From the NCBI GenBank assembly GCA_045642005.1, contig JAZUHZ010000251.1, positions 1 through 41,911 of the forward strand: DNA of 41,911 nt, read 5' to 3'. Below are positions 2,453 through 31,995 of this stretch, piece after piece. The stretch comes from Candidatus Avilachnospira sp. (GTDB lineage Bacteria; Bacillota; Clostridia; Lachnospirales; Lachnospiraceae). Made by a program: the position numbers and the translations under genes. The notes beneath the pieces were generated by a model. It saw only the letters and a list, made by a program, of their open reading frames with translations. It had not been told where the DNA came from and ran no database searches. Within the stretch, counting starts at the first letter, position 1. The number at the start of each line of letters is the position of its first letter.

Positions 2453-2540
2453 AACCTGAACATAAGGAAACTGACCCACAATCTGTGAACATGATTCGTT
2501 CGGGAAAGGGAAAATCTAAAAAACATCGAAGGATTTAGTG

Positions 2541-4379
2541 ATGAAACCGGTTTCAAAATCAAATAAACGGAATGCAGTTACCGATAAAATGTTTATCTCC
2601 CTGTTTCTGACAGGGTCAGTCATGGAGCTCTCTCAGGTCGGTTCCGGATTCATAGACGGGGTTGTTATCAGCCGTTTTCTGGGACATGATGCTATGGCGG
2701 CTGAAGGAATCATTCATCCCGTTTTCAGTATCCTCGGGATGATCAGCGGGCTTTTGGCTGTCGGAATGCAGGTGCGTTGCTCGCAGGAGATCGGCAGAGG
2801 CAGCAAAGAGAATTTTTCCAGATTTGTAAGTGCAGCGGTTTATGCAGGTGTAATAGCTTCGCTTCTTATTACTGTCCTTCTCTTAGCGTTTGCAAAACCA
2901 TTTGCCGTTTTGCTTGGTGCATCAGGAAATGCGGCAGCACTTACCGATACAGCGGCAAAATATCTGACGGGCATAAGTATCGGAGCCCCGCCGCTGATCA
3001 TGACAGCGGTTCTTGCGCCGGCTTTTCAGCTTGATACGGGACGAAAGATTATTGGCAGAGGAGCGATCATAGAAGCGGTATCCAATGTGATCCTGGATAT
3101 TGCCGCCATAAAGCTTGGCTGGGGAATTTTCGGAATCGGCCTTGCAACAGCTTTGGCCAGCTACATGAACCTGTTATATCTCTGCACATTCTTCCTTAGA
3201 AAGAACCGCATGCTCCATTTTGTAAAGCCGGATATTCCCGTCAGGGAATTCCTTCGTATGCTTGTATATGGCAGCGAAAAAGCAGTCCGAAGACTTGCCA
3301 ATACTCTGCGTCCGATCATCCTGAATACTGCCATCATTTCTTACGGCGGAACCGCCGCAATGTCGGCTTTTTCAGTTAGAAACAATTTCTCCAACTTTGC
3401 CGAGATTTTCGGAGCCGGAATCGCATCTGCGGTTTCTCTTCTCACGGGCGTATACTATGGTGAGATTAATGCTGAAGGCATTGAAGCGGTAGATAACTGT
3501 AAGAACCGCATGATTTTTCTCTGTACAGGTGCTGTATGTGTTCTCATGTTTTTCTTCGCAAAGCCTATAGCCTGCCTCTATATTACAGAGGACGGTGCCA
3601 TTTACGATATGGCAGTGTTTGCCCTCCGTGTACTCGCCATTCAGATTCCTTTACAGGCGCTTGTTGAAAGCCGTATCAAATACCTGCAGGCGATTCATTT
3701 ACAATTGAATATGAATCTTCTTACGATTGCCACACGCCTGATACTTGTTGTATTATCCGCATACTTTATGGGAAAACTGTTTGGAGACTATGGTATTCTC
3801 GCGTGCTGCACAGTCAGTGATGCGCTTACGCTGATTTCCATTTACATTTTTAATTGGATCCGATTACGCGGAAAGCGCCCGGAAAAACGTGATTTCCTTC
3901 ATCTTCCGGATTCTTTTTATCTGAATCCCGGAGATGAGATATCGCTTAACGTTCGAAGCGAAGAAGATGCCTGTCTTGTGTCGGAACAGATCATGCTGTT
4001 TTGCAGAGGACATAAGATCGACAGCCGGACAGGATACCTCGCGGCGCTCTCATTTGAAGAACTGGCAGTGAATATTGTCAGACACGGCTTCCCGAAAAAC
4101 AGTTCTTCAACTCCGATGATCGACATGCGCACTGTCATCACGGATGATAATCTTGTGATCAGGCTTCGCGACAACTGCCCTTATTATGATGTCACTGCCC
4201 ATTTAACTTCTCTGAGAGATGAAATCAGACCGGAACACAATATAGGAACGCGGATCGTAAGCAATATGGCGTCAGATATCACATATCTCCGTACTTTTGA
4301 ATCGAACAGTCTTATTCTTTGTTTCAAAACGAAAAAAATGCGACCGGTCCCTTTAAACTCAATGTCGCAAGTGAAATAA
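2541..4379 (+). CDS. MATE-family efflux transporter fused to a C-terminal RsbW/SpoIIAB-like (HATPase_c-type) domain
   Basis: About 450 aa of polytopic membrane sequence typical of MATE. The C-terminal ~150 aa carry an N-box-like EELAVNIVRHGF and the strand pattern of anti-sigma-factor kinases. The G1 box looks degenerate (RDNCPYYD). A GAAGGA RBS precedes the ATG at 2541, and the ORF is open from a GTG at 2538. Confidence 0.75.
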   Translation: MKPVSKSNKRNAVTDKMFISLFLTGSVMELSQVGSGFIDGVVISRFLGHDAMAAEGIIHPVFSILGMISGLLAVGMQVRCSQEIGRGSKENFSRFVSAAVYAGVIASLLITVLLLAFAKPFAVLLGASGNAAALTDTAAKYLTGISIGAPPLIMTAVLAPAFQLDTGRKIIGRGAIIEAVSNVILDIAAIKLGWGIFGIGLATALASYMNLLYLCTFFLRKNRMLHFVKPDIPVREFLRMLVYGSEKAVRRLANTLRPIILNTAIISYGGTAAMSAFSVRNNFSNFAEIFGAGIASAVSLLTGVYYGEINAEGIEAVDNCKNRMIFLCTGAVCVLMFFFAKPIACLYITEDGAIYDMAVFALRVLAIQIPLQALVESRIKYLQAIHLQLNMNLLTIATRLILVVLSAYFMGKLFGDYGILACCTVSDALTLISIYIFNWIRLRGKRPEKRDFLHLPDSFYLNPGDEISLNVRSEEDACLVSEQIMLFCRGHKIDSRTGYLAALSFEELAVNIVRHGFPKNSSSTPMIDMRTVITDDNLVIRLRDNCPYYDVTAHLTSLRDEIRPEHNIGTRIVSNMASDITYLRTFESNSLILCFKTKKMRPVPLNSMSQVK

Positions 4380-6341: not shown

Positions 6342-6446
6342 ATGAAGAACAGAAAAGAGAAATTTTCAGAGAAACAGGCTGTGATGGAGCTTGCGGATGA
6401 CGGGGCCTTCTCCATAGAAAAAACAGCGGCCCCGGACATACAGTAA
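6342..6446 (+). pseudogene. Relic of a class-B leader peptide gene (MKNRKEKFSEKQAVMELADDG..), truncated before the GG site
   Basis: The 34-codon ORF has an N-terminus and upstream region (6265-6341, including GCGCGTATAATA) homologous to the cassettes at 14566-14660 and 17223-17300. The SD is degraded and the QVTGG motif is lost. Confidence 0.5.
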
Positions 6447-6478
6447 GGCGGTCATCAGAAGAAAGGAATATGGACAAC

Positions 6479-6985
6479 ATGAAAAAAACGCTGGCTGTCC
6501 TGCTGCCCGTACTGATTCTTTGCGGTATTCTTAACGGTTGTGAGAATCAATCCATTTCCCACAGCGAAAAACTTTCCATTGTAATAACGGTGTCCCCGGT
6601 ATATGACTGGGTGCGGAACATCCTCGGTGAAAAAGCCGCGGACACCGATCTCACACTGCTTCCTGAGAAAGGCGCGGATCTGTACGGTTTTCAGCCCACG
6701 GAAGATGACATTCTCCGGATCTCTCAATGTGATCTCCTGGTTTATGCCGGCGGGGAAGCGGATCAATGGGTGGAAGACGCGCTGAAAAAAGCGGGCAGTC
6801 CGGAGATCATCGTGATCCGTCTGCTGGATGTTCTCGAAGCCCCGGTCATGGAAGGCGGAGAAGACGAGCATGTCTGGCTTTCTCCGAAAAACGCGGAGGT
6901 GCTGATCCCGTATCTCTGCGATGCCCTGATCGAGGCGGATCCGAAAAATGCAGCGTTTTACACGGAAAACGCTGAAGGCTTATGA
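6479..6985 (+). pseudogene. Truncated ZnuA/TroA-type metal ABC substrate-binding lipoprotein (N-terminal half only)
   Basis: Signal peptide with lipobox LNGC. Cluster-9 SBP-like motifs (GADLYGFQPT, DEHVWLSP). The ORF stops at about 170 aa, whereas this family is usually about 300 aa. No permease or ATPase genes are adjacent. Confidence 0.5.
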
Positions 6986-8744: not shown

Positions 8745-9098
8745 TCAGTATGTCATCAGGAAAGCAAGGATCCCGTGGGTGGGAACGTAGCCCTCGATAT
8801 CATAAATCTTCCGGCCGGAAGGATATTCACAGATGCCGGAGGAATCGACCTGAAGAAGGTTTCGCCCGGAAGGGTATTCCTTCAGATACCTGCCGTCATA
8901 CTGTCTGAGATGTCTCCCGGACGGGTATTCGTTGATATAGTCCCCGTCAAACTGATATATGATTCTTCCGGAGGGATAGTCTCTCACGGCTCTGCTGTCG
9001 ATATGGTACTCTGTCCGGCTGGACGGATAGTCTTTGATGGAGTCACTGTCAATTTCCATGATCCTTCTTCCGGAAGGATACTCTCTGATATATCCCAT
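8745..9098 (-). CDS. Small repeat protein: six exact 17-residue repeats centred on (E/D)YPSGR, plus a hydrophobic C-terminal tail
   Basis: The Tyr of YPS(G/S)R falls at residues 7, 24, 41, 58, 75 and 92. RBS is AGAGGTGA. Confidence 0.7.
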   Translation of the reverse strand: MGYIREYPSGRRIMEIDSDSIKDYPSSRTEYHIDSRAVRDYPSGRIIYQFDGDYINEYPSGRHLRQYDGRYLKEYPSGRNLLQVDSSGICEYPSGRKIYDIEGYVPTHGILAFLMTY

Positions 9099-10223: not shown

Positions 10224-11477
10224 TCAGGCGGCGAAGATCTCCTCCAGATCTTTTCTGAGGAGGGTCTTCTTCTCCATGAGAGCCGTGGCCACACGGTCAA
10301 GGAGAGCGCGGTGCTCGCAGAGCATGCGGCGGGTCTCGTTATAGTAACGCTGCATCTCCAGGGAGATCACGGTGTCCTTGCGGTCCATGGCATGGGTTCC
10401 CATGTTGGAGCTTCTTTCAAACTCTCCGAAACCGTAGGTGCAGTAGTTGTCGGCAAAACGCTCCACAATGTTAAAGGCTCTGTTCAGATCGCTGTTGGCG
10501 CCCACGTCGGTGGTGCCGAAGGTGATCTCCGTAGCAGCTTTTCCGCCGAGAATGGAGAGGACGCGGTTTTCCATGAACTTCTTGGAACCGAAATAATTCC
10601 TGTTCTGTGTATAGGAGGTGATGCCTCCCACGTCACCGTTATAGGTGGCCACGGAAACGAGATTCACGCTTCCCGGTTCCAGGAGCTCGTTCACCACGGC
10701 ATGTCCCGCCTCGTGCCAGGCAACCGTTTTCAGAAACTCCTCATCATACCGGAAGCTTTCGGGCGCACCGAAGATCACGCGGAGGCAGGCTCTCACCATA
10801 TCGTCCATGCCGATGCTTTCCTTATTTTCATATCCCGCATAGATGCCGGCCTCATTCACCACGGTCTCCAGCTCAGCGCAGCTTCTTCCGTCAAGGATGT
10901 GCGCGATCTGATCGGCATCAATGTCCGAGACGAAATTCTTCTGTCCGAGGTAATGGCGGATGATCTCCGCGGCGTCCTCCACCTTCGGGGCGCAGATCTC
11001 CACGGTCTTGTCGAAACGGCCGGCGCGGAGAAGAGACGGCGGCAGACAGTCCTCCTCATTGGCGGTGGCGAGCACGAACACTTCGCTGTCTCTGCAGTCA
11101 TCGATGCAGGACTGGATGGTGACAAACTCTTCCGCATTTCTGTGGCGGTTGTCCTCATTGGCAAACTTGTCAATGTCATCCAGGAAAATGATGGACGGCG
11201 CCTGTTCCTTTGCTTTCTGGAAGGTCTCGCGGATCTCGTTGACAAAAGCGCCGTCGGGCTTGTCCTTGCGGCAGGTGAATGCCGGGCGGCCGCTGGCTTT
11301 TACGATGCACTTTGCCATGGTGGTCTTGCCGAGGCCGGGCTCTCCGATCAGAAGAAGTCCCTTCGGGGTGTTCACGCCGAGAGCGCGGTACTTGTCCGGG
11401 TGCTTCATGATGTCGCAGAGACGCTCAAACTCCTTTTTTTCTTCCTCATATCCGATGATAGGATCAAATTCATTCAT
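10224..11477 (-). CDS. Soluble FtsH-like protein: an AAA+ module plus an M41 zinc-peptidase domain, with no transmembrane anchor
   Basis: Walker A GEPGLGKTT. Walker B IIFLDDID (DD in place of the usual DE). SRH ATANEEDCLPPSLLRAGRFD. Zinc site WHEAGHAV. Only 417 aa, with no N-terminal TM segments. RBS is AAGGGGA. Confidence 0.8.
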   Translation of the reverse strand: MNEFDPIIGYEEEKKEFERLCDIMKHPDKYRALGVNTPKGLLLIGEPGLGKTTMAKCIVKASGRPAFTCRKDKPDGAFVNEIRETFQKAKEQAPSIIFLDDIDKFANEDNRHRNAEEFVTIQSCIDDCRDSEVFVLATANEEDCLPPSLLRAGRFDKTVEICAPKVEDAAEIIRHYLGQKNFVSDIDADQIAHILDGRSCAELETVVNEAGIYAGYENKESIGMDDMVRACLRVIFGAPESFRYDEEFLKTVAWHEAGHAVVNELLEPGSVNLVSVATYNGDVGGITSYTQNRNYFGSKKFMENRVLSILGGKAATEITFGTTDVGANSDLNRAFNIVERFADNYCTYGFGEFERSSNMGTHAMDRKDTVISLEMQRYYNETRRMLCEHRALLDRVATALMEKKTLLRKDLEEIFAA

Positions 11478-12560: not shown

Positions 12561-12794
12561 ATGGAAAACTACGAAGATACTGAAAACGAGCTTACCGCAG
12601 AAGCACTTCAGAGTGTGAGCGGCAGCGCATCACCGTATGACGAAATGGCAGCGCCCGGGTCGAGGAAACTGATGACAGATTACCCGGATAATCAGATAAT
12701 CATCGGAGGGCCGCTGAAAAAGAACATCGAAAACCAGGCAAAGCTGGCTGCAACAACGGCAGATTTTATAACCAGAGTCGGGTACAGGGAATAG
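12561..12794 (+). CDS. Small ORF with a degenerate leader-like N-terminus (..ELTAEALQSVSGS..). It overlaps the 12692-13015 gene antisense.
   Basis: Good RBS (GAGGAGATCAATC ATG). The 103-nt convergent overlap with the minus-strand precursor makes it uncertain that both are coding. Confidence 0.35.
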   Translation: MENYEDTENELTAEALQSVSGSASPYDEMAAPGSRKLMTDYPDNQIIIGGPLKKNIENQAKLAATTADFITRVGYRE

Positions 12795-13015
12795 CCTCGG
12801 ATCCTTCTCACCTGCTGCTGGAGAGAATCGCCGTGATCGACAAGGATCCGACTTTTATCGGTACAAAGAGTCTTGAGGTATTTGTGAAGCCCCGTACAGC
12901 CTTGGTTGTCTCCGCCCGCGACCTGCGCAAGCTCTTCCTCGGTCAGCTCAGTGAGCTTCTCGTTCATTGCTTCATATTCGATTTTCAGTTCGTTCAGTTC
13001 TTCTTTCGTTTTCAT
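12692..13015 (-). CDS. Class-A double-glycine leader peptide precursor (leader MKTKEELNELKIEYEAMNEKLTELTEEELAQVAGG, 72-aa C-terminal region)
   Basis: The leader is near-identical in pattern to the 17497, 18077 and 18425 paralogs. The core has two Cys and a hydrophobic tail. Confidence 0.7.
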   Translation of the reverse strand: MKTKEELNELKIEYEAMNEKLTELTEEELAQVAGGDNQGCTGLHKYLKTLCTDKSRILVDHGDSLQQQVRRIRGYSLYPTLVIKSAVVAASFAWFSMFFFSGPPMII

Positions 13016-13266: not shown

Positions 13267-13863
13267 CTAGAAACACCCGCCTGCCAGATAGGCGTTTTTC
13301 ATAACAGGTCCGTTACTTTTCCCCTCGATATTCAGCTCATACAGCTCGAAATCTGTCCAGCCGGTATCCGGGTAAAAGAGATTCAGGGTGTAGAGTTTCT
13401 GAAATCCGAAGGACTCGTACAGCCGGTTTGCGGGAAGGTTTCCTTTTAAGACATCGAGCCTCAAGGCTTTTCCTCCGTTTTCTCCTGCCGTATCGATCGC
13501 ATACTGCACCATTTCTTTTGCAAGACCTCTCCGTCCGTATGACGGGAGCACGGCGAGCATGTGGATCACAAAGACTTCTTCTTTTTCCGCCCTCGTCGGC
13601 CAGTCAAACCGGCTGTATCCCTCGTTGCATTCGTGATTTAAGGCCATGACTGAAACGATCCTTCCGTCAAGCTTTCCTGTAACCAGTTCTCCCCTTTCCA
13701 GAAGCTCCCTTAGTTCCCGGGGATCCGGATACACGTCTTTCTCCCAGCGGGGATGGTAGTCTCTCCCGGCAAAGCCGTCGATCACCTCGTAATAGAAGGA
13801 CCTGATCTGTTCGTATTCTTCTTTTTCCGCTCTTTTGATCATCATGTGTCTTGATCTTCCCAT
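13267..13863 (-). CDS. GNAT-family N-acetyltransferase
   Basis: Acetyl-CoA binding motif (LAVLPSYGRRGLAKEMV) and the overall GNAT pattern. The start may be the Met at 13845. Confidence 0.8.
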   Translation of the reverse strand: MGRSRHMMIKRAEKEEYEQIRSFYYEVIDGFAGRDYHPRWEKDVYPDPRELRELLERGELVTGKLDGRIVSVMALNHECNEGYSRFDWPTRAEKEEVFVIHMLAVLPSYGRRGLAKEMVQYAIDTAGENGGKALRLDVLKGNLPANRLYESFGFQKLYTLNLFYPDTGWTDFELYELNIEGKSNGPVMKNAYLAGGCF

Positions 13864-14098: not shown

Positions 14099-14368
14099 TT
14101 AGCTGAACTTCTTTGCCAGCGTATTCACTTTTGTCATCAGCTCCTTTGAAAACAGGCCCTGATTCTTCTCCACAACGGCGGAATACTTTTTTGCGTTCGG
14201 GATCTGTGCCATCAGCGTTGCCACATTGGCATTTTTGATAATGCCTGCCAGCTCCTTCATGTCATCCGGAAGCTTTCCGCTCTTCTCAAGCCCGTCAAAT
14301 TCCTTCTTTGCCATGTCAAGCACACTTCCGAGCTCATTTCCTGCACTCAGTTTGTCCAATAATCCCAT
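14099..14368 (-). CDS. Hypothetical 89-aa helical protein
   Basis: ORF with an AAAGGA RBS. No family recognised. Confidence 0.55.
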   Translation of the reverse strand: MGLLDKLSAGNELGSVLDMAKKEFDGLEKSGKLPDDMKELAGIIKNANVATLMAQIPNAKKYSAVVEKNQGLFSKELMTKVNTLAKKFS

Positions 14369-14491
14369 AATTTCTGTCCTTTCATCGAATATTTTCTGTT
14401 CTGCACCGCCCTGTCATATGATGGGCGGTCAAACATATTATACATACCTTCCCCGAAAAAGGATACCGTACTTTTCCATGAATGCCATTCC

Positions 14492-14608
14492 CCTCATTTG
14501 CCAAATTAAATACAGCCCTTACCCTCCATTTAATTTGGCAAATGAGGGTGGTGTGATGATGTGGCCCGTGAAAAAGCAGTATCCTTTTCCGGCAGCCGGG
14601 CGTATAAT
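14492..14608 (+). promoter_or_regulatory. Peptide-gene promoter cassette, copy 1: palindrome with 20-nt arms (14492-14511 / 14528-14547, 16-nt centre), a conserved block, and -10 TATAAT (14603-14608)
   Basis: The arm CCTCATTTGCCAAATTAAAT is perfectly complementary to ATTTAATTTGGCAAATGAGG. The downstream block GTGAAAAAGCAGTATCCTTTTCCG..GCCGGGCGTATAATA is shared with copy 2 and, in degraded form, with 6265-6312. The -35 is poor (TATCCT). Confidence 0.65.
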
Positions 14609-14643
14609 ACCTAAGGAATCGATAATTCTGGAGGAAAACCGGT

Positions 14644-14994
14644 ATGAAAAACAGAAAAGAGAAATTCGCAGGCGAACAGGCCATGATGGAGCTTTCTGAT
14701 GACGATCTGGGTCAGGTAACGGGAGGCACTGATATCACACTTGAAAAGGCAGGCGTCAGGCTGGGTGAAACCGGAGTCGTGCTCTGCCCAACAGATACAC
14801 GCAGCTTTACACCCACAATTTCGCCCACAATTGAACCTACAATTGAACCTGACGCTACGGAAAACCCGGGAATTTCAGGCGGAACACTCAATTCTTTACC
14901 ATATACTGAACCTACGAGCCAATCCAATCGCTATTTTGTGTATTATGAACCAGACCCGATAGAAAAGTTCTCTACTAATGTCTCTAAACAGTAA
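14644..14994 (+). CDS. Class-B double-glycine leader peptide precursor (leader MKNRKEKFAGEQAMMELSDDDLGQVTGG, 88-aa Pro/Thr-rich core)
   Basis: A GGAGGAA RBS and the conserved cassette lie upstream. The core contains TPTISPTIEPTIEP repeats and one Cys. Confidence 0.75.
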   Translation: MKNRKEKFAGEQAMMELSDDDLGQVTGGTDITLEKAGVRLGETGVVLCPTDTRSFTPTISPTIEPTIEPDATENPGISGGTLNSLPYTEPTSQSNRYFVYYEPDPIEKFSTNVSKQ

Positions 14995-15107
14995 GAACAA
15001 ATAATGATCCTGATCAGGTAACGGGAGGCATTGGGCCTTGCCTCACCGGTGAGAGAAACTATGAACTGATCAGTCCCGGCGCCAACGTGATATCCGATCC
15101 CGGGTGA
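14988..15107 (+). pseudogene. Startless leader remnant (..NNDPDQVTGG IGPCLTGERNYELISPGANVISDPG)
   Basis: The frame opens after the TAA at 14985-14987 and has no ATG, GTG or TTG before the DPDQVTGG motif. The DNA GATCAGGTAACGGGAGGC is identical to the cleavage-site DNA of the preceding gene. Confidence 0.4.
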
Positions 15108-15182
15108 AATGGAATCGGCAGCAGCTATGATGAGGGATGGGCACATAGACAGAGGCGCGTGAACGCACAGCAGGGAGTAACT

Positions 15183-17063
15183 ATGGAAATCGTAAAAACT
15201 TCTAATGAAAATAATGATCTGATTTTCAGATTATCAGGACAGATTGATGCTGTGACCAGTGAGGACCTTGAAAACAGTATCCGTCAAACGGATTTTACGG
15301 GAAAGAACATTATCTTCGACTTTGAAAATGTACCCTACATTTCATCGTCCGGTCTGAGGCAGCTGCTGATTGCAAAAAAGAAAGCCGGGGAAGCGTCTTT
15401 TAAGCTTATCAATACCAATGAAACGGTTGAAGATGTTCTGAAAATGACCGGCATGGATTTGGTTTTTGATATCGAATCCGCACAAAAACCGGACCGTTCC
15501 TTCACCGGCAAAACCATAAAAGATCTGCTGGAGATCAAGTTCAGAGAGTGTCCTGAAAAGACATTTCTGCTCAGTGAAAATGCCGCCTACACATGGAGAG
15601 AGATTTACTATGCCGTTCAGATCATTGCTTTTGATCTGTATCGGACCGGTGTGCGCAAGGGTACACATGTAGGAATCTGCTCCACCAACTCGATCAACTG
15701 GGTTCTGGCTTTTTTTGCGGTTCAGAAGCTGGGAGGTATTGCCTGCCTTCTGAATTTCGGTTATACGGCATCGGAGCTTCGCAGAGTGCTTAACAGCGGA
15801 GATATCACGTATTTTATTTACGGTGATATTCCTTCCATTGCCGCAGAGGAAGAAAGCTTTCTGGAAGATCTTCCGGCCGGCACGCAGGTAAAGCATGTCT
15901 ACTCTGTCAAATCCTCTGTGAATTTTAAGAGCCGCCTGCAGGAGTATCCGTATATCGAAGGACTGTTTTCGGAAAAATCGGATGCTGATGATGCCTCTGT
16001 GATGATTTTCACGTCCGGTTCCTCCGGGACACCCAAGGGCGTCATCTTGTCGTCGTTCAATATTTTCAACAGCGCCGAGGCGATGAATCAGGTTGAAAAA
16101 CTGACGGACAAGGACCGCCTTTGTCTGATCACGCCTCTCTTCCATATTATGGGGCTCGCTCTGAGTTTATTCGAATGTGCGCTCTGCAATTGTACGGTAT
16201 TCTTCCCGCATGACATCCGCACCAATACGCTCCTGTCTGATATTGATGCCTACAAATGCACCGCCATCAAAAGTGTACCCACAATGATGATCGCCATTAC
16301 CAACAATCCCACGTTTCGTATAGACAGGGTCGCCACCATCAGGACATGCGTGCTGGGAGGCGCACCGGCTACGGAAGCGCAGCTTCTGCGTATGCAGAAG
16401 GCGTTCCCAAACACAAAATTTTTCAATGCGTATGGTCTGAGCGAAATGGCACCGGTCTGTGTCACCGGTACGGATACGCCCATTGAACAACTGGCACATA
16501 CCTGCGGCAAACCGATTGATCATATTACGGTACAGATCCGGAACATTCTCACCGGAGAAATCTGTCCTCCCGGAGAAGACGGCGAATTGATCGTCAAAGG
16601 ATCCAACATGATGGCATGTTACTATAAACTGGATCTTGATGATCAGATCATTGACAGTGAGGGATATATCCATACGGGAGATATCGGAAATATTGATTCT
16701 GAAGGTCAGATTCACATTACAGGACGTCTGAAAGAACTGATCATCCGGGGCGGTGAGAATATCGCTCCCAAAGAAATTGCCGAACCGATTACAAATTTTG
16801 AAGGGGTTCAGGACGTAAAGGTGGTTGGCGTACCGCACGATTTCTTTGGTGAAGTTCCCTGTGCCTGTATTGTTATGAAACCCGGGGTTTGTTTTGACGA
16901 GGCGAAAATGAGAGAATACCTCGCCAGGGTTCTGACAAAGCAAAAGCTGCCGGAATACTTCTACCTCTTTAAGGAATTCCCCATGCTTGCCTCAGGAAAA
17001 ACAGATTCCGTACGGATCAAAAAACTCGCGGTGGAAAAGTTTGGCGCGAATCTTTGCGGATAG
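15183..17063 (+). CDS. Fusion protein: an N-terminal STAS (SpoIIAA-like anti-sigma-antagonist) domain and an adenylate-forming ANL enzyme (acyl-CoA synthetase / fatty-acyl-AMP ligase-like)
   Basis: STAS region: DFENVPYISSSGLRQLLIAKKKAGE...LKMTGMDLVFDI, with the conserved Ser retained. ANL motifs: IFTSGSSGTPKGV (A3), YGLSE (A5), TGD (A7), GRLKELIIRGGENIAPKEI (A8), and a C-terminal Lys in SGKTD (A10). An AGGGAG RBS precedes the ATG at 15183, and the ORF is open from a GTG at 15159. Confidence 0.85.
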   Translation: MEIVKTSNENNDLIFRLSGQIDAVTSEDLENSIRQTDFTGKNIIFDFENVPYISSSGLRQLLIAKKKAGEASFKLINTNETVEDVLKMTGMDLVFDIESAQKPDRSFTGKTIKDLLEIKFRECPEKTFLLSENAAYTWREIYYAVQIIAFDLYRTGVRKGTHVGICSTNSINWVLAFFAVQKLGGIACLLNFGYTASELRRVLNSGDITYFIYGDIPSIAAEEESFLEDLPAGTQVKHVYSVKSSVNFKSRLQEYPYIEGLFSEKSDADDASVMIFTSGSSGTPKGVILSSFNIFNSAEAMNQVEKLTDKDRLCLITPLFHIMGLALSLFECALCNCTVFFPHDIRTNTLLSDIDAYKCTAIKSVPTMMIAITNNPTFRIDRVATIRTCVLGGAPATEAQLLRMQKAFPNTKFFNAYGLSEMAPVCVTGTDTPIEQLAHTCGKPIDHITVQIRNILTGEICPPGEDGELIVKGSNMMACYYKLDLDDQIIDSEGYIHTGDIGNIDSEGQIHITGRLKELIIRGGENIAPKEIAEPITNFEGVQDVKVVGVPHDFFGEVPCACIVMKPGVCFDEAKMREYLARVLTKQKLPEYFYLFKEFPMLASGKTDSVRIKKLAVEKFGANLCG

Positions 17064-17123
17064 AACGGAGGTGCTTTCACAACGCGTAAGGATATCACAG
17101 GCTGAAGGTAACAGATCCGGCTT

Positions 17124-17263
17124 GCCAGAGTAAATGCAGGTTGGCTCTTGGGATGATTTTGCCAGATTAAATGCAGGGTAAGGGCTGCATTTACTTTGGC
17201 AAATGAGGATGATGATACAGCCGTGAAAAAGCAGTATCCTTTTCCGACTGCCGGGCGTATAAT
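17124..17263 (+). promoter_or_regulatory. Peptide-gene promoter cassette, copy 2: an extra half-site (17124-17142), a palindrome (17158-17203) whose centre is inverted relative to copy 1, a conserved block, and -10 TATAAT (17258-17263)
   Basis: TTTGCCAGATTAAATGCAG GGTAAGGG CTGCATTTACTTTGGCAAA. The reverse complement of copy 1 matches this copy at 44 of 50 positions, against about 36 of 50 in direct orientation. The downstream flank is co-oriented with copy 1. Confidence 0.65.
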
Positions 17264-17296
17264 ATTTATGAGTCGATAATTCTGGAGGAACGGAGT

Positions 17297-17464
17297 ATGA
17301 AGCTCAACAAAAAGGAACTAATCACTGAGAACCAGGCTATGATGGAGCTTTCAGATGATGATCTGGATCAGGTAACGGGTGGATGTGAGCCCGCCAGTTC
17401 TCGCGTCAAGCCCGAATTTGATTCTCCGGACGGATTTGTGCCGATCGAGTCGCAGCCCTCTTAA
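17297..17464 (+). CDS. Class-B double-glycine leader peptide precursor (MKLNKKELITENQAMMELSDDDLDQVTGG, 26-aa core CEPASSRVKPEFDSPDGFVPIESQPS)
   Basis: 55 codons, below the ORF-track cutoff and read by hand. A GGAGGAA RBS and the conserved cassette lie upstream. Confidence 0.7.
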   Translation: MKLNKKELITENQAMMELSDDDLDQVTGGCEPASSRVKPEFDSPDGFVPIESQPS

Positions 17465-17484
17465 GGGAGAGCCCGGTTTACTCG

Positions 17485-17760
17485 ATGGAATTCTCTATGA
17501 AAACGAAAGAAGAACTGATCGAAATGAAAATGGAATATGAAACAATGAACGAAAAACTTGCCGAGTTGTCAGATGATGAGTTAGAACAGGTAACCGGTGG
17601 TCAGTACGTTAATCACGATTATCCATCGTTAAAGGCGTTGGATAATCTTAACAGACAGGCAAAATCAAAAAGCAGACTTATAGAACAAATATCCACTGGC
17701 ACAATCATCAATTACGAGAAGGATACTCCGATTTCCATTGATCCAAAATCTGTCAAGTAA
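17485..17760 (+). CDS. Class-A double-glycine leader peptide precursor (..MKTKEELIEMKMEYETMNEKLAELSDDELEQVTGG, 52-aa core)
   Basis: The leader is conserved with its paralogs. The start is either the ATG at 17485 or the MKTKEEL Met at 17497. Confidence 0.75.
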   Translation: MEFSMKTKEELIEMKMEYETMNEKLAELSDDELEQVTGGQYVNHDYPSLKALDNLNRQAKSKSRLIEQISTGTIINYEKDTPISIDPKSVK

Positions 17761-17814
17761 ACACTAAGCAGCGATATTTTTCCGAAAATCACTAAGCTTA
17801 TTGAAGGGCAGGTT

Positions 17815-18051
17815 GTGAAAAAGCTTGCGAATGACGAACTGGAGCAGGTTTCCGGCGGTATGAAATACGAGGGACTCATTGCTGAGCATATCAGGGAAGC
17901 AGGGAATTTTATTGTTGATGGTGTTTCTATTAAGAGGCTCCGTGAACCTGCAACAGAATCGACTGCGCATGCAGGGTTCATCGATAACAGATCTACAAAG
18001 AAACCGGAACCAGAGGTCTATGTATTCGCATCTGTCACCACAGACGGCTGA
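17815..18051 (+). CDS. Short-leader double-glycine peptide precursor (MKKLANDELEQVSGG, 63-aa core)
   Basis: GTG start. The ELEQVSGG motif is present. The core is unrelated to its neighbours. Confidence 0.55.
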   Translation: MKKLANDELEQVSGGMKYEGLIAEHIREAGNFIVDGVSIKRLREPATESTAHAGFIDNRSTKKPEPEVYVFASVTTDG

Positions 18052-18076
18052 TTGAACGGAAAGGAATAATTCTGCC

Positions 18077-18394
18077 ATGAAAACAAAGGAAGAACTGAAC
18101 AGACTGAAAACCGAATATGCGGCAATGAACGAAAAGCTTGCTGAACTGTCAGATAATGAGCTGGAACAGGTAACCGGAGGTACCGCCCGTCCGTTGTTTC
18201 AGGCGTTGAACCAGTTACTCCAGCGACCAATCGAAATACCGAACTCCATATTGCAAAATACGACTTCACAAAACACTGCGAATTCTGGCACCGAAGGATA
18301 TTCACGGCAGCAAGTTAATTCACTTCCCGTACAGTATTACCAAAAAGAAAACTCTGCGCCTGACATTTCGGACATCATCGCTACAGAGGAGTAA
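18077..18394 (+). CDS. Class-A double-glycine leader peptide precursor (MKTKEELNRLKTEYAAMNEKLAELSDNELEQVTGG, 70-aa Gln/Asn/Ser-rich core)
   Basis: GGAAAGGAA RBS. The leader is conserved with its paralogs. Confidence 0.75.
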   Translation: MKTKEELNRLKTEYAAMNEKLAELSDNELEQVTGGTARPLFQALNQLLQRPIEIPNSILQNTTSQNTANSGTEGYSRQQVNSLPVQYYQKENSAPDISDIIATEE

Positions 18395-18424
18395 GTACCA
18401 CAGCCTGATAAGGTGTTATTATCG

Positions 18425-18577
18425 ATGAAGACCAAAGAAGAGCTTAACGAACTGAAAATCGAATATGAATCTCTGAGCAGAAAGTTTGCTGAATTAACGG
18501 AGGGGGAGCTCGAGCTGAGGTCCGCCGTTATTCCGGCGAGCCTCCTGTTCTGTTTCAAAAAGCCCACCTTCCGATGA
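18425..18577 (+). pseudogene. Degenerate class-A leader gene (MKTKEELNELKIEYESLSRKFAELTEGELELRS..) that has lost the QVTGG site
   Basis: 50 codons read by hand. The first 30 aa align with class-A leaders, after which the sequence diverges with no GG. Confidence 0.45.
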
Positions 18578-30995: not shown

Positions 30996-31613
30996 TTACA
31001 GCGATGCTTTTGCTTTGTCGTACTTCTCTTTTTCCATGCCGAGGATCCGACAGGCTTCTTCCAGTGTCACACTCAAATTCCGGGAACAGTTTTCAACAAC
31101 ATTTACAGTCTCCCGGGCATTTTCCTTCTCGGCTTCGTCAGCACGGGTCTCGGCTTTATCGGCACGGAGTGTCTCCTCTTTGGCGTACTCTTCGGCGTAC
31201 TCTTTTGCGTAATCCTTGGCGTAATCTTCTACCAGTTCACACATAACCTCTGTTCCTCCTTCTCCTTTCTTGTAACGGGCTTTCGTTTGGGATGTCTTTG
31301 GAAACTGCTCATAGTCATAGCTCTCCAGATCCGTAAAGATCTCCATGAGCTTTGCAATCCTGCTCCCGTCATCCACCGCAGCATTCACATAGATCTCTGT
31401 GAATCCGTTTTCCGCCACGCTCCCCGTCTCCCGGATCACCCGGTCGATATGATATGTTGTCTTTCCCTGCCCGAATACATCGAACCGGCTGATAAAGATG
31501 ATCACTTCCTCGCAGAACTCCAGATCCTCGGCCATTTTCCGGAACAGAGCGTCATCAATGACGTTGAGGGCTTCCACGATCTCCCGTATGGTTTTTTTGT
31601 TGTTTTCTTCCAT
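30996..31613 (-). CDS. Rpn/YhgA-like (PD-(D/E)XK putative transposase/nuclease family) protein that appears to lack the central nuclease core. It has a C-terminal DYAKDYAKEYAEEYAKEE repeat.
   Basis: The segment IFISRFDVFGQGKTTYHIDRV...EIYVNAA and the C-terminal ..GGTEVMCELVEDY resemble this family as I recall it. The conserved catalytic region expected between the N-terminus and IFIS is absent. Confidence 0.4.
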   Translation of the reverse strand: MEENNKKTIREIVEALNVIDDALFRKMAEDLEFCEEVIIFISRFDVFGQGKTTYHIDRVIRETGSVAENGFTEIYVNAAVDDGSRIAKLMEIFTDLESYDYEQFPKTSQTKARYKKGEGGTEVMCELVEDYAKDYAKEYAEEYAKEETLRADKAETRADEAEKENARETVNVVENCSRNLSVTLEEACRILGMEKEKYDKAKASL

Positions 31614-31995
31614 TTTCACCTCTTTGCGCTTTCTGCAGAGAGGCTCCGGGCTGTCTGCCCTTTGACTGCATCTTCGATCCTTTCAGAACCACCATTCGTG
31701 TGTGAGAACCACCTTTCGTGTGTATTCTGAAAAAGCACCGGTGATCCCGGTGCAGGAGATTCTTCTCCCGATAGAAAAGCCGGATGCTTTTCAGATTCGA
31801 AAATTTACAATTTGATTATAGCATAGTTTTGAAACACTCGCATAGTTTTTTTTGACTGTACGCCTCCTGAATTATTTAAGATTTCAGATCATGAAGGAGT
31901 CTTGCCCAAAAGGACTGTGCAAGGAAATACTTGCGCTCTGCCTGTTTAGTAAAGGAAAGGTGCCCATGATATGGCACCTTCCGTGATAAAGTACC

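What the first reader, a model, noticed from the sequence alone, without database searches (positions are those of the whole stretch)
15183..17063. STAS (anti-sigma antagonist) domain fused to an adenylate-forming enzyme in the middle of the peptide cluster
The first ~105 aa form a SpoIIAA/RsbV-like STAS domain and retain the serine of the phospho-acceptor motif (ISSSGLRQL). The remaining ~520 aa carry all core ANL motifs (SGSSGTPKG, YGLSE, TGD, RGGENI, terminal SGKTD).

STAS domains are known as partner-switching modules controlled by RsbW/SpoIIAB kinases. In the transporter YchM/DauA, a STAS domain is a docking surface for acyl carrier protein.

A STAS-ANL fusion therefore suggests two possibilities. 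Acyl activation could be regulated by phosphorylation or partner switching, or the STAS domain could recruit a carrier protein or peptide. The gene sits between precursor genes that share one promoter cassette, which argues that it belongs to the peptide system.
Basis: partly seen in the sequence, partly recalled or inferred. Interest (0 to 1): 0.7.

Follow-up and report, generated by a model that had tools for sequence, protein, structure and literature searches.

The report
STAS-regulated acyl-activating enzyme, peptide link weak
The gene really does fuse a phospho-switch (STAS) domain to an acyl-activating enzyme, and it belongs to a large uncharacterised family from gut and rumen bacteria whose usual neighbours are acyltransferases and STAS kinases and phosphatases, not the secreted-peptide genes that flank it here.

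Summary
ORF 15183-17063 (+) encodes a 626-aa protein with a STAS domain (aa 2-99), a flexible linker and a complete ANL (acyl/aryl-CoA-synthetase-type) enzyme. All catalytic motifs are intact. The serine equivalent to the SpoIIAA phospho-acceptor (S55) is retained.

This is not a one-off fusion. Hundreds of 43-74 % identical STAS-ANL proteins occur in gut and rumen Bacillota and Coriobacteriia.

In 84 related loci the recurrent neighbours are:
- membrane AT3 acyltransferases (34 loci, mostly translationally coupled);
- a new ~410-aa HxxxD family with a BAHD/PapA5/condensation fold (21 loci);
- SpoIIE-type PP2C phosphatases (19), HATPase_c_2 kinase-like proteins (14) and stand-alone STAS proteins (11);
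- MATE and ABC exporters, GT2 glycosyltransferases and STAS-APH fusions.

Double-glycine (GG) leader peptide genes lie next to the fusion only in this window and two or three close relatives.

The only family-typical partner in the window is a MATE transporter fused to an anti-sigma-kinase-like domain (2538-4379).

Best reading: an acyl-CoA/AMP ligase whose activity or location is set by a partner-switching-type STAS module, and which feeds acyltransferases that decorate exported or surface products. The phospho-regulation idea is supported. Membership of the peptide system is not. The fusion is a new variant of a known kind; the closest precedent is the Anabaena STAS-glycosyltransferase All4160.

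The parts
15183..17063 (+). STAS-ANL fusion gene (626 aa): intact and predicted to be catalytically competent
   Evidence: Pfam gives STAS + AMP-binding + AMP-binding_C. AF2 pLDDT is 91.7. All ANL core residues are invariant across 86 fusions.
15183..15482 (+). STAS domain (aa 1-100), RsbV/SpoIIAA type
   Evidence: Pfam E 1.2e-14. It is 35-45 % identical to ~100-aa stand-alone STAS proteins. The AF2 secondary structure is beta-alpha-beta.
15345..15347 (+). Codon of Ser55, the position equivalent to the SpoIIAA Ser58 phospho-acceptor (motif SS*SGLR)
   Evidence: Invariant in alignment A1. It is Ser in 75 of 86 fusions and Leu/Ile in the rest. It sits at the N-cap of helix alpha2 in the model. 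The equivalence to SpoIIAA S58 and TM1442 S59 rests on sequences recalled from memory.
15483..15515 (+). Flexible inter-domain linker (aa 101-111)
   Evidence: This is the only low-confidence segment of the AF2 model, with block pLDDT 66 and <50 at aa 102-104.
15516..17060 (+). ANL (acyl-CoA-synthetase-like) catalytic module: N-terminal domain plus C-terminal lid with the catalytic Lys606
   Evidence: Pfam. The closest PDB sequences are fatty-acyl/feruloyl-CoA synthetase, MenE, FadD and oxalate-CoA ligase, E about 1e-50. Foldseek confirms the ANL fold. All NCBIfam hits fall below the family cut-offs.
2538..4379 (+). MATE transporter fused to a C-terminal HATPase_c_2 (RsbW/SpoIIAB-like) domain. 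It is the only family-typical partner of the STAS-ANL in this window and the candidate STAS receptor.
   Evidence: Pfam gives MatE plus HATPase_c_2 at aa 502-594. Full-length homologues lie 2.4-5 kb from STAS-ANL in L083, L084, L088 and L121. The family has at least 138 clusters. The N-box is kept, but the G1 box and ATP lid are degenerate.
14644..14994 (+). GG-leader peptide gene immediately upstream (116 aa); a neighbour, not a shown part of the system
   Evidence: Leader MMELSDDDLGQVTGG. The only NCBIfam hits are to bacteriocin and lantibiotic models and match its leader segment, all below their cut-offs.
17297..18577 (+). Array of five GG-leader peptide ORFs downstream (17297-17464, 17485-17760, 17815-18051, 18077-18394, and the degenerate 18413-18577)
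14491..14640 (+). Promoter/operator cassette copy 1: 21-bp perfect inverted repeat, TATAAT, GGAGG
17158..17290 (+). Promoter/operator cassette copy 2: same cassette, with the palindromic element inverted relative to copy 1
14998..15037 (+). Relic of a GG-leader coding sequence in the 188-bp spacer between the upstream peptide gene and the STAS-ANL start
   Evidence: Direct-repeat family D2; sequence.

Best explanation
The gene encodes an acyl-activating enzyme (acid + ATP -> acyl-AMP -> most probably acyl-CoA). A flexibly tethered N-terminal STAS domain of the anti-sigma-antagonist type controls it after translation.

**Role in the family.** The enzyme is the acyl-donor supplier for adjacent acyltransferases. 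These are membrane AT3 enzymes or soluble HxxxD enzymes of the BAHD/PapA5/condensation fold. They acylate exported or cell-surface products. GT2 glycosyltransferases and MATE/ABC exporters are frequent co-neighbours.

**Role of the STAS domain.** It is the receiver of a partner-switching-type module. A HATPase_c_2 protein binds the conserved Ser55, and where its kinase site is intact phosphorylates it. A SpoIIE-type PP2C phosphatase reverses this. There is no sigma factor; the output is the enzyme itself.

**In this window.** The only cognate component is the MATE-HATPase_c_2 fusion at 2538-4379. Its kinase-like domain has a degenerate ATP site. It therefore more probably acts as a membrane docking site for the unphosphorylated STAS domain, coupling acyl activation to the exporter.

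**Shown:** domain architecture, intact motifs, family-wide gene neighbourhoods, and the fold of the neighbouring acyltransferase family.

**Inferred:** phosphorylation of S55, binding to the MATE C-terminal domain, CoA as the acceptor, and the identity of the acid and of the final acylated product.
For: **Architecture and fold.**

**Active site.** The catalytic residues are invariant in 86 fusions: P-loop K285, E421, T498-G-D, R515 and K606.

**STAS type.** The STAS domain is closest to stand-alone RsbV/SpoIIAA-type proteins.

**Neighbourhoods of 84 STAS-ANL loci.**
- AT3 acyltransferases occur in 34 loci. In 28 they lie within 200 bp, and 27 of those are on the same strand, often with 1-16-nt overlaps.
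- None of 65 control loci around non-fusion ANL genes has an AT3 gene.
- The ~410-aa HxxxD family occurs in 21 loci, often 10-55 bp away and in 2-7 tandem copies.
- Its AF2 model (pLDDT 92.6) matches BAHD COSY, PapA5, the SrfA-C condensation domain and TRI101 at Foldseek E 1e-17 to 1e-14.

**Partner-switching genes.**
- SpoIIE occurs in 19 loci, HATPase_c_2 in 14 and stand-alone STAS in 11. The 83 non-fusion loci give 4, 0 and 4.
- The clearest example is L085: HAMP-SpoIIE-HATPase_c_2 / STAS-ANL / HAMP-SpoIIE / STAS / STAS-ANL / three HxxxD acyltransferases / ABC exporters.
- Every SpoIIE or HATPase_c_2 neighbour lies beside a Ser55-type fusion. None lies beside the 11 Leu/Ile variants.

**Other STAS-tagged enzymes.** Other enzymes in the same clusters also carry N-terminal STAS domains, for example the STAS-APH fusions.

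**The MATE partner.** The window, L083 (74 % identical) and L084 (60 %) share only STAS-ANL and MATE-HATPase_c_2. L001 and L170 (71-72 %) have the operon STAS-ANL / HD-PTP phosphatase / MATE.

**Precedent.** Anabaena All4160 is a STAS-glycosyltransferase controlled by the PP2C phosphatase HenR and the kinase Alr3423 (PMC13555669).
Against: **Missing partners in the window.**
- No acyltransferase of the AT3 or HxxxD type, no PP2C phosphatase and no stand-alone STAS protein is present.
- The local pathway is therefore incomplete or encoded elsewhere.

**The MATE-HATPase_c_2 gene is a weak local partner.**
- It lies 10.8 kb away, across unrelated genes and gene fragments.
- Homologues of it also occur without any STAS-ANL within 10 kb (L167, L168).
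- Its kinase-like domain lacks the DxGxG box and about 11 residues of the ATP lid, so phosphorylation by it is doubtful.

**Other gaps.**
- 11 of 86 fusions have Leu/Ile at position 55.
- Many related contigs are short, so the counts are minimum estimates and are not corrected for phylogeny.
- No biochemical datum exists for any family member.
- The substrate cannot be inferred. The nearest solved structures span fatty, aryl, dicarboxylic and succinylbenzoate substrates.
Confidence: 0.55

Rival explanations
1. This is the first reader's view: a RiPP or bacteriocin tailoring enzyme. The STAS-ANL would activate an acid, or the peptide C-terminus, to acylate or ligate the flanking GG-leader peptides. 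The STAS domain would recruit the peptide or a carrier, and the MATE protein would export the product.
For: **Local layout.**
- The gene sits between two copies of one promoter cassette, each driving a GG-leader ORF.
- No terminator-like site was found between the upstream peptide gene (end 14994) and the ATG at 15183.

**Close relatives.**
- L001 (71 %) has a GG-type leader ORF directly upstream of the fusion. A radical-SAM/SPASM cluster with a Cys-rich GG peptide lies after the MATE gene.
- L170 (72 %) has two GG/AG-leader ORFs right after STAS-ANL / HD-PTP / MATE.

**MATE exporters and peptide clusters.**
- L169 has a MATE-HATPase_c_2 gene next to three radical-SAM genes and a full STAS/kinase/PP2C set.
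- The window's MATE protein hits the tryglysin-associated MATE model WgkD, although below its cut-off.
Against: - Only about 4-5 of 85 or so STAS-ANL loci have any GG-leader ORF within 10 kb.
- L083 (74 %) and L084 (60 %) have none.
- The window contains no C39/PCAT transporter, leader peptidase, RiPP maturase or peptide-directed acyltransferase. The only GNAT gene (13267-13863, minus strand) is not conserved in relatives.
- The family-wide neighbours are acyltransferases of glycan or small-molecule type.
- GG-leader genes here show signs of local duplication and decay, with relics at 6342-6446 and 14998-15037 and a degenerate ORF at 18413-18577. This suggests a dynamic array into which the gene is simply embedded.
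Confidence: 0.13
2. The STAS domain is a constitutive docking or scaffolding module without phospho-control. It would tether the ligase to the MATE C-terminal pseudokinase domain, or to a carrier protein as in YchM/DauA-ACP. Activated acyl groups would then be made at the membrane next to the transporter.
For: - The HATPase_c_2 domain of the MATE fusions has lost the DxGxG box and part of the ATP lid across 118 family members, yet keeps the N-box helix.
- 13 % of fusions have Leu/Ile in place of Ser55.
- No PP2C phosphatase is present in the window.
- MATE genes accompany all five closest relatives whose flanks were sampled.
Against: - PP2C phosphatases and small, apparently complete HATPase_c_2 proteins are adjacent to many homologues, and only to Ser55-type ones.
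- No carrier-protein gene is a conserved neighbour. PP-binding domains were seen only inside NRPS-like genes in L011 and L097.
- For this particular window the docking model cannot be separated from the phospho-switch model. It is partly contained in the best explanation.
Confidence: 0.2
3. This is an ordinary housekeeping fatty-acid or aromatic-acid CoA ligase for catabolism or lipid recycling. The STAS domain would be a functionless or merely stabilising appendage.
For: The best NCBIfam and PDB matches are fatty-acyl-CoA ligases, MenE and similar enzymes. In some loci (L002) the neighbours are housekeeping genes.
Against: - All NCBIfam scores are far below the family cut-offs (for example 341 against 832 bits).
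- The STAS domain is conserved over a 43-74 % identity range, with invariant G57 and R59 and near-invariant S55.
- The conserved neighbourhoods are biosynthetic and regulatory. No beta-oxidation or menaquinone genes were seen in the neighbourhoods that were annotated.
Confidence: 0.05

Closest known systems
All4160 / HenR / Alr3423 of Anabaena PCC 7120: a STAS-domain glycosyltransferase under a partner-switching-like phospho-switch (Harada et al., Mol Microbiol 2026, PMC13555669). All2285 and XssP are related examples.
   Same: - An N-terminal anti-sigma-antagonist-type STAS domain is fused directly to a biosynthetic enzyme.
- SpoIIE-type PP2C phosphatases and HATPase_c_2-type kinases are encoded nearby in many loci.
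- There is no sigma-factor output.
- The context is envelope or exopolymer biosynthesis.
   Different: - The catalytic partner is an ANL adenylate-forming ligase, not a sugar transferase.
- The lineage is anaerobic gut/rumen Bacillota and Coriobacteriia, not cyanobacteria. The authors state that STAS-sugar-transferase fusions are rare outside cyanobacteria.
- The candidate receptor here is fused to a MATE transporter and has a degenerate ATP site.
- Nothing has been tested experimentally.
Canonical partner-switching modules: SpoIIAA/SpoIIAB/SpoIIE and RsbV/RsbW/RsbU (Bacillus); SypA/SypE (Vibrio fischeri)
   Same: The STAS sequence type and fold match. A conserved Ser sits at the N-cap of helix alpha2 in the SxGL motif. 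The family co-occurs with HATPase_c_2 and SpoIIE-family genes.
   Different: The STAS domain is not a stand-alone protein. No sigma factor or anti-sigma target is present. The window contains no PP2C phosphatase and no stand-alone kinase.
Acyl-CoA synthetases of the ANL superfamily (FadD, MenE, 4CL, feruloyl-CoA and oxalate-CoA ligases)
   Same: All core motifs (A3, A5, A7, A8, A10) and the two-domain fold are present. Sequence E-values to solved structures are about 1e-50.
   Different: - No NCBIfam equivalog or subfamily cut-off is reached.
- There is an extra N-terminal regulatory domain.
- The neighbours are acyltransferases, not beta-oxidation, menaquinone or phenylpropanoid genes.
- The substrate is unknown.
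YchM/DauA (SLC26/SulP) STAS domain that binds acyl carrier protein
   Same: A STAS domain is physically linked to acyl or fatty-acid metabolism and to a membrane transporter.
   Different: - In DauA the STAS domain is the C-terminal domain of the transporter and is of the SulP type.
- Here the STAS domain is of the RsbV type and sits on the enzyme, while the transporter carries the kinase-like domain.
- No ACP gene is conserved nearby.
Ligase-plus-acyltransferase pairs for envelope acylation. The closest example is DltA (an ANL enzyme) working with the membrane acyltransferase DltB and the carrier DltC. AT3 O-acyltransferases such as OafA and WecH use acyl-CoA donors.
   Same: In 28 related loci an ANL enzyme is translationally coupled to, or lies within 200 bp of, a membrane acyltransferase. 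This implies a dedicated supply of acyl donor.
   Different: - The partner is AT3 (PF01757) or a soluble HxxxD enzyme, not an MBOAT.
- No carrier protein is conserved nearby.
- The STAS regulation is additional.
- The comparison rests on general knowledge, not on a test made here.

Membership tests
STAS domain (PF01740), anti-sigma-antagonist type | Profile match above the curated threshold | tested here: met
   54.4 bits against a cut-off of 22.6, aa 10-98. Best library matches are ~100-aa stand-alone STAS proteins at 35-45 % identity.
STAS domain (PF01740), anti-sigma-antagonist type | Four/five-stranded beta-sheet with alpha-helices (beta-beta-alpha-beta-alpha-beta-alpha-beta) | tested here: met
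   AF2 elements E2-7, E12-18, H26-34, E42-49, H55-68, E73-78, H80-89 and E96-99, with block pLDDT 87-94.
STAS domain (PF01740), anti-sigma-antagonist type | Conserved phosphorylatable Ser/Thr at the N-terminus of helix alpha2 (D/S-S-x-G-L) | tested here: met
   S55 lies in SS*SGLR. It is Ser in 75 of 86 fusions, and G57 and R59 are invariant. Actual phosphorylation cannot be tested with these tools.
ANL superfamily, acyl-CoA-synthetase class | Core motifs: A3 P-loop (T/S)SG(S/T)TGxPKG, A5 YGxxE, A7 TGD, A8 Rxx(D/E)xIxxGGxNI, A10 catalytic Lys | tested here: met
   All are present in the window protein and invariant or nearly invariant in 86-109 homologues.
ANL superfamily, acyl-CoA-synthetase class | Two-domain fold (large N-terminal domain plus a ~110-aa C-terminal lid) | tested here: met
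   Foldseek E about 1e-44 and TM-score (target-normalised) up to 0.88 to MatB, MenE, 4CL, McbA and AasS.
ANL superfamily, acyl-CoA-synthetase class | Thioesterification with CoA, as opposed to a carrier protein, an amine, or adenylate only | not testable with these tools
   The nearest relatives are CoA ligases, but amide synthetases and acyl-ACP synthetases score similarly in the fold search.
Named acyl-CoA ligase families (FadD, MenE, FadD3 and others; NCBIfam) | Score at or above the curated family cut-off | tested here: not met
   The best hit is PRK12583 at 340.8 bits against a cut-off of 832. MenE TIGR01923 scores 246.6 against 330.
Canonical partner-switching system (RsbV/RsbW/RsbU type) | Cognate HATPase_c_2 serine kinase/anti-sigma factor encoded with the STAS protein | tested here: inconclusive
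   - In the window the only HATPase_c_2 domain is fused to MATE, lies 10.8 kb away and has a degenerate G1 box.
- Across the family, HATPase_c_2 genes occur in 14 of 84 loci against 0 of 83 controls.
Canonical partner-switching system (RsbV/RsbW/RsbU type) | PP2C (SpoIIE/RsbU) phosphatase | tested here: not met
   None is present in the window. PP2C genes occur in 19 of 84 related loci, often adjacent.
Canonical partner-switching system (RsbV/RsbW/RsbU type) | Sigma factor (or other transcription factor) as the sequestered output | tested here: not met
   No sigma-factor gene was found next to the fusion in the window. None appears among the recurrent neighbour clusters.
RiPP / class II bacteriocin gene cluster (tailoring enzyme of GG-leader peptides) | Conserved co-location of the enzyme family with precursor peptide genes | tested here: not met
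   GG-leader ORFs lie near the fusion only in the window, L001, L170, L124 and L004 (8 kb away), out of about 85 loci.
RiPP / class II bacteriocin gene cluster (tailoring enzyme of GG-leader peptides) | Leader-cleaving C39 peptidase/ABC transporter or another maturase in the locus | tested here: not met
   No Peptidase_C39, ABC_membrane, LanM/LanB/LanC or radical-SAM hit was found among the window ORFs scanned.
CoA-dependent acyltransferase superfamily (BAHD / PapA5 / NRPS condensation), tested for the ~410-aa neighbour family rather than for the window gene | Two-lobed CAT-like fold with a catalytic HxxxD motif | tested here: met
   H115 and D119 are invariant in 29 and 28 sequences. AF2 pLDDT is 92.6 and Foldseek E is 1e-17 to 1e-14 to COSY, PapA5, the SrfA-C condensation domain and TRI101. 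There is no Pfam hit. No member is present in the window.

The most novel reading that the evidence does not exclude
Gut and rumen anaerobes may possess a class of biosynthetic gene clusters in which the enzymes themselves carry N-terminal STAS domains. Examples are the acyl-activating ANL ligase and APH-type kinases.

These enzymes would be switched or docked directly by membrane-anchored partner-switching components: HAMP-SpoIIE phosphatases and a MATE exporter carrying an anti-sigma-kinase-like pseudokinase domain. This would be an enzyme-level partner switch without a sigma factor. It would couple acyl activation to acyl transfer and export.

In this window the STAS-ANL would dock on the MATE C-terminal domain.

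A still more radical sub-reading, with a probability of 0.1 or less, is that in the window's own clade the acyl group ends up on the flanking GG-leader peptides. That would be a ribosomal lipopeptide route exported by MATE.
Probability: 0.35. Interest if true: 0.7.

Novelty: new variant of a known kind. Interest (0 to 1): 0.55.

Why it matters
**Partner switching beyond sigma factors.** Partner switching is textbook sigma-factor control. Direct control of an enzyme by a fused STAS domain has only just been shown, for one cyanobacterial glycosyltransferase in 2026, and was described as lineage-specific.

**What this family adds.** The family seen here would extend that principle to adenylate-forming enzymes, and apparently to APH-type kinases. 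It would also extend it to abundant gut and rumen Firmicutes and Coriobacteriia.

**An annotation gain.** The analysis also identifies a Pfam-less ~410-aa acyltransferase family and a MATE-pseudokinase fusion as likely partners of the STAS-ANL enzyme.

**A route to experiments.** These points make testable how commensal anaerobes regulate acylation of surface or secreted products, which is relevant to host interaction and phage resistance.

**A caution for genome mining.** Sitting between precursor-peptide genes was not enough to assign this enzyme to a RiPP pathway.

Tried and rejected
- **Origin of the window.** Exact-sequence look-up of the window protein, from both the ATG and the GTG start, found nothing on record. 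The source organism is therefore unknown. The PolC gene and the nearest homologues point to Clostridia/'Eubacteriales'.
- **Sequence-only test of the ~410-aa family.** Pfam gave no hit. A PDB profile search gave only sub-threshold hits (E 0.03-3), although 8 of the 10 were CoA-dependent acyltransferases. Structure prediction and Foldseek settled the question.
- **Acyltransferase remnants in the window.** A search with AT3 and HxxxD HMMs and with tblastn found none. The Pfam Condensation fragment at 32321-32905 (minus strand) is about 15 kb away. It clusters with NRPS-type condensation domains, not with the ~410-aa family.
- **RNA families.** Rfam scans of the whole window, and a permissive scan of 14350-17320, found no known RNA family in the shared cassette.
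- **Substrate inference.** The nearest PDB and Foldseek matches are too heterogeneous to infer a substrate.
- **Does the STAS domain occlude the active site?** The tool returns no coordinates or PAE, so the inter-domain geometry could not be assessed. Only the low-confidence linker is known.
- **Promoters and terminators.** The consensus scan was not above shuffled expectation (8 against 7.1 promoter-like sites, 6 against 5.1 terminator-like sites). It was used only to note that no terminator-like site lies in 14994-15183.
- **Literature.** Three full-text searches found no paper that combines STAS with ANL, acyl-CoA-synthetase or AMP-binding terms.
- **Reciprocal test.** Two of three MATE-HATPase_c_2 homologues sampled have no STAS gene within 10 kb. 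That pairing is therefore not obligatory.

Full report
**1. The observation**

The region holds one long ORF, 15159..17063 (+). The ATG at 15183 is preceded by AGGGAG at the right distance for a ribosome-binding site, so I take 15183-17063 (626 aa) as the gene.

Pfam gives three hits:
- STAS, aa 10-98, E 1.2e-14, 54.4 bits against a cut-off of 22.6.
- AMP-binding, aa 120-481, E 2.7e-75.
- AMP-binding_C, aa 535-606, E 6.4e-10.

In alignments of 16, 109 and 86 homologues the ANL catalytic residues are invariant or nearly so. These include the P-loop S278-G-S-x-G-x-P-K285-G, Y417-G-x-S-E421, T498-G-D500, R515, R522-G-G-E-N526 and G605-K606.

An AlphaFold2 model built on 109 sequences has pLDDT 91.7 and pTM 0.82. 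It shows three parts:
- a classical STAS beta-alpha fold at aa 2-99, with Ser55 at the N-cap of helix 55-68;
- a low-confidence linker at aa 100-111;
- a complete two-domain ANL fold.

Foldseek against the PDB returns only ANL enzymes, including MatB, MenE, 4CL, McbA, AasS and EntE, at E about 1e-44.

**2. The surroundings in the window**

The gene is flanked by GG-leader ORFs:
- 14644-14994 upstream;
- 17297-17464, 17485-17760, 17815-18051, 18077-18394 and the degenerate 18413-18577 downstream;
- 12692-13015 on the minus strand.

The 'shared promoter cassette' is real. Regions 14491-14640 and 17158-17290 are about 90 % identical. Each has a 21-bp perfect inverted repeat, a TATAAT box and a GGAGG site.

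Leader relics lie at 14998-15037, inside the 188-bp spacer before the STAS-ANL start, and at 6342-6446. This indicates a duplicating and decaying peptide-gene array.

The window contains none of the machinery that defines a GG-leader or RiPP system. There is no C39 peptidase/ABC transporter, no lanthipeptide enzyme and no radical-SAM maturase.

It does contain, at 2538-4379, a 613-aa MATE transporter. Its C-terminal ~110 residues match HATPase_c_2, the RsbW/SpoIIAB anti-sigma kinase family (E 5e-6, just below the gathering score).

**3. The fusion is a family**

A protein search returned 944 hits. Nearly all of the top 120 have the same STAS + AMP-binding + AMP-binding_C architecture at 43-74 % identity.

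They come from MAGs of Lachnospiraceae, Eubacterium, Ruminococcaceae, Bacilli and Eggerthellaceae. They are annotated only as 'AMP-binding protein', 'fatty-acyl-CoA synthase' or 'anti-sigma factor antagonist'.

Scans of the genome and metagenome collections added loci from rumen and gut samples. I assembled 84 loci that carry a STAS-ANL ORF.

The STAS part alone is most similar (35-45 %) to stand-alone ~100-aa STAS proteins. It is therefore of the RsbV/SpoIIAA type, not the SulP type.

Three full-text literature searches found no paper that links STAS with ANL or acyl-CoA-synthetase terms.

**4. What travels with it**

I clustered all neighbouring ORFs de novo and annotated representatives. 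The counts below come from HMM searches of all ORFs or, where noted, from the clusters themselves.

| Neighbour | Fusion loci (of 84) | Notes |
|---|---|---|
| AT3 membrane acyltransferase (PF01757) | 34 | 28 within 200 bp, 27 of those co-directional, many overlapping the fusion gene by 1-16 nt |
| ~410-aa HxxxD family, no Pfam hit | 21 | often 10-55 bp away, in 2-7 tandem paralogues |
| SpoIIE-type PP2C phosphatase | 19 | many with HAMP or transmembrane N-termini |
| HATPase_c_2 protein | 14 | |
| Stand-alone STAS protein | 11 | |
| ABC exporter | 17 | de novo cluster |
| MATE-HATPase_c_2 fusion | 9 | de novo cluster, includes the window |
| GT2 glycosyltransferase | 8 | de novo cluster |
| CBM48-amylase | 7 | de novo cluster |

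STAS-APH (phosphotransferase) fusions also occur in L135 (two copies), L004, L131 and L136.

The ~410-aa family has invariant His and Asp in an HxxxD motif. Its AF2 model (pLDDT 92.6, pTM 0.91) matches BAHD COSY, PapA5, the SrfA-C condensation domain and TRI101 at E 1e-17 to 1e-14.

Controls were as follows:
- None of the 65 loci around non-fusion ANL genes has an AT3 or HxxxD neighbour.
- Among all 83 non-fusion loci, HATPase_c_2 occurs in 0 and SpoIIE in 4.
- The few 'control' loci that do carry AT3 or HxxxD genes hold ANL homologues of the same family in which no STAS domain was detected. In some the contig end cuts the gene; others appear to lack the domain.

The clearest single locus is L085/L086 (Eubacterium sp., 49 % identity). 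Its gene order is HAMP-SpoIIE-HATPase_c_2 / STAS-ANL / HAMP-SpoIIE / STAS / STAS-ANL / three or four HxxxD acyltransferases / ABC exporters.

**5. The phospho-acceptor**

Ser55 aligns with the phosphorylated Ser of SpoIIAA (S58) and TM1442 (S59). Both sequences were recalled from memory, so this equivalence is a lead rather than a computed result.

Ser55 is Ser in 75 of 86 fusions and Leu/Ile in 11. G57 and R59 are invariant.

All 20 fusions in loci with a SpoIIE neighbour, and all 15 in loci with a HATPase_c_2 neighbour, are Ser-type. The trend agrees with phospho-regulation. It is not corrected for phylogeny.

**6. The closest relatives and the MATE link**

- The window shares with L083 (74 %), L001 (71 %) and L084 (60 %) only the fusion gene and the MATE gene.
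- L083 and L084 carry full-length MATE-HATPase_c_2 homologues 2.4-5 kb from the fusion, together with two or three HxxxD acyltransferases.
- L001 and L170 (71-72 %) carry the operon STAS-ANL / HD + Y_phosphatase3 / MATE, with overlapping or abutting stop and start codons.
- In the window the MATE-HATPase_c_2 gene lies 10.8 kb away. The intervening stretch holds an aminotransferase gene, a ZnuA fragment, a GH32-like gene, a soluble FtsH-like gene, a GNAT gene and peptide genes.
- The MATE-HATPase_c_2 architecture is itself a family of at least 138 clusters.
- Its kinase-like domain keeps the N-box (FEELAxNIxxxGFP). The DxGxG box is replaced by 'RDnC-P'. The domain also lacks about 11 residues of the ATP lid relative to SpoIIAB, whose sequence was again recalled from memory. 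It may therefore be a binding module rather than an active kinase.
- The reciprocal test was mixed. Two homologues (L167, L168) have no STAS gene nearby. One (L169) sits beside STAS / HATPase_c_2 / SpoIIE and three radical-SAM genes.

**7. The peptide link**

A leader HMM and regular-expression searches over all small ORFs of all loci found GG-leader ORFs near the fusion only in these places:
- the window;
- L001, with one directly upstream and others 6-7 kb away beside a radical-SAM cluster;
- L170, with two directly after the MATE gene;
- L124;
- L004, 8 kb away.

L083 and L084 have none. At family level the association fails.

Within the window's own clade (>=70 % identity) it recurs: the window and two of the three relatives with usable flanks have such ORFs. 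A clade-specific functional link therefore cannot be excluded. I rate it at about 0.13.

**8. Mechanism proposed**

Shown:
- a STAS-ligase fusion with an intact active site;
- family-wide coupling to acyltransferases of two kinds;
- family-wide enrichment of partner-switching genes;
- a flexible tether between the two domains.

Inferred:
- The ligase makes an acyl-adenylate, and probably an acyl-CoA, for the adjacent acyltransferases. These decorate exported or surface molecules.
- The STAS domain receives the signal, either through Ser55 phosphorylation and dephosphorylation or through binding to a HATPase_c_2 domain. The output is enzyme activity or localisation, not transcription.
- In this window the STAS domain most probably docks on the C-terminal domain of the MATE protein.

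The acyltransferase partner and any phosphatase must be encoded outside the window, or the local system is a remnant.

**9. Comparison with what is known**

The nearest precedent is Anabaena All4160. This STAS-glycosyltransferase is inhibited by phosphorylation by Alr3423 and activated by the PP2C HenR (PMC13555669). Its authors regard such enzyme-level control as lineage-specific to cyanobacteria.

The present family would be a second, independent instance, with a different enzyme class and in different phyla.

It is not a member of any named CoA-ligase family, since all NCBIfam scores fall below the cut-offs. It is not a canonical sigma-factor partner switch. It also does not meet the defining features of a RiPP tailoring enzyme.

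**10. Verdict**

The finding is a real, intact, uncharacterised STAS-ANL fusion. The 'belongs to the peptide system' half is not supported.

The fusion is a new variant of a known kind. Interest is moderate (0.55). It would be higher if the enzyme-level partner switch with a MATE-tethered pseudokinase were shown experimentally.

Noticed in passing
window 2538-4379 (+); HATPase_c_2 part about 4041-4319: A MATE transporter is fused to a C-terminal anti-sigma-kinase-like (HATPase_c_2) domain. The architecture forms a family of at least 138 clusters of ~600 aa in 'Eubacteriales' MAGs. Across 118 members the DxGxG box is replaced by 'RDnC-P' and about 11 residues of the ATP lid are missing, which suggests a pseudokinase or docking domain.
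   Followed up: partly
window 14491-14548 and 17158-17208: The ~51-58-bp palindromic element of the duplicated promoter cassette is inverted between the two copies. It is 47/51 identical in reverse complement, loop included, and worse in the forward orientation. The downstream -10/RBS part is co-linear. This could be an operator palindrome or a small invertible segment. There is no Rfam match.
   Followed up: partly
window 14998-15037, 6342-6446 and 18413-18577: These are relics and degenerate copies of GG-leader coding sequence: 'NNDPDQVTGG' in the spacer before the STAS-ANL gene, 'MKNRKEKFSEKQAVMELADD' cut short after 34 codons, and a leader that has lost its GG. Together they indicate a duplicating and decaying peptide-gene array.
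   Followed up: partly
L135 3852-5120 and 5144-6424; L004 1832-3115; L131 1253-2419 (-); L136 874-2046: STAS domains are also fused to APH-family phosphotransferases (390-427 aa) in the same clusters that hold STAS-ANL. Several enzymes of one locus therefore carry the same regulatory tag. L106 has an HD_4 + APH protein.
   Followed up: partly
L001 11537-13024; L170 2494-3981: A 495-aa HD + Y_phosphatase3 (PTP-like) protein is translationally coupled to the STAS-ANL gene in the 71-72 % relatives and is followed by a MATE gene. It may be an alternative phosphatase for the STAS domain. It is absent from the window.
   Followed up: no
L169 3233-11797: Three radical-SAM genes with small upstream ORFs are followed by STAS / HATPase_c_2 / SpoIIE and a MATE-HATPase_c_2 gene. 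A partner-switching module thus appears attached to a RiPP-like cluster and a MATE exporter.
   Followed up: no
L158, L159, L160, L166 (also L016, L156, L161): These loci hold ANL homologues (37-47 % identity over the ANL part) in which no STAS domain was detected. Their matches start at query residue 74-113 in most and at 284 in L166. They lie beside AT3 acyltransferases. In L016 and L161 the contig end cuts the gene. In L158 the contig does not. The ligase-AT3 pairing may therefore predate the acquisition of the STAS domain.
   Followed up: partly
window 10224-11477 (-): A 417-aa FtsH-like protein has an AAA domain and a Peptidase_M41 domain with an HEAGH site. At 417 aa it is much shorter than typical FtsH and appears to lack the transmembrane N-terminus, which was not checked directly. 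It may be a soluble FtsH paralogue.
   Followed up: no
window 32321-32905 (-) and 30996-31619 (-): An isolated 194-aa fragment matches the middle of the NRPS Condensation domain (Pfam E 3e-9). A 207-aa ORF with no Pfam hit lies downstream. This is probably the remnant of an NRPS-type gene.
   Followed up: no
window 8745-9098 (-): A 117-aa ORF is built of repeated 'EYPSGR'-containing units (…REYPSGRRI…KDYPSSRTE…RDYPSGRII…NEYPSGRHL…KEYPSGRNL…CEYPSGRKI…). It has no family assignment.
   Followed up: no
window 6470-6985 (+): A 171-aa ORF matches only the first half of the ZnuA periplasmic-binding model (positions 1-135 of 263). It is a truncated gene, consistent with a rearranged region between the MATE gene and the STAS-ANL gene.
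   Followed up: no
window 298-2220 (+): A 640-aa protein has a central coiled-coil-like stretch and no Pfam family. It lies directly upstream of the MATE-HATPase_c_2 gene. It is not homologous to the 417-aa HxxxD protein that occupies this position in L083.
   Followed up: partly
L011 1934-9720 (-): NRPS-like A-PCP-C proteins (965 and 968 aa) and a further stand-alone ANL gene lie next to a STAS-ANL gene. L097 has an A-PCP protein beside one. Some family members therefore sit in NRPS-type contexts.
   Followed up: no
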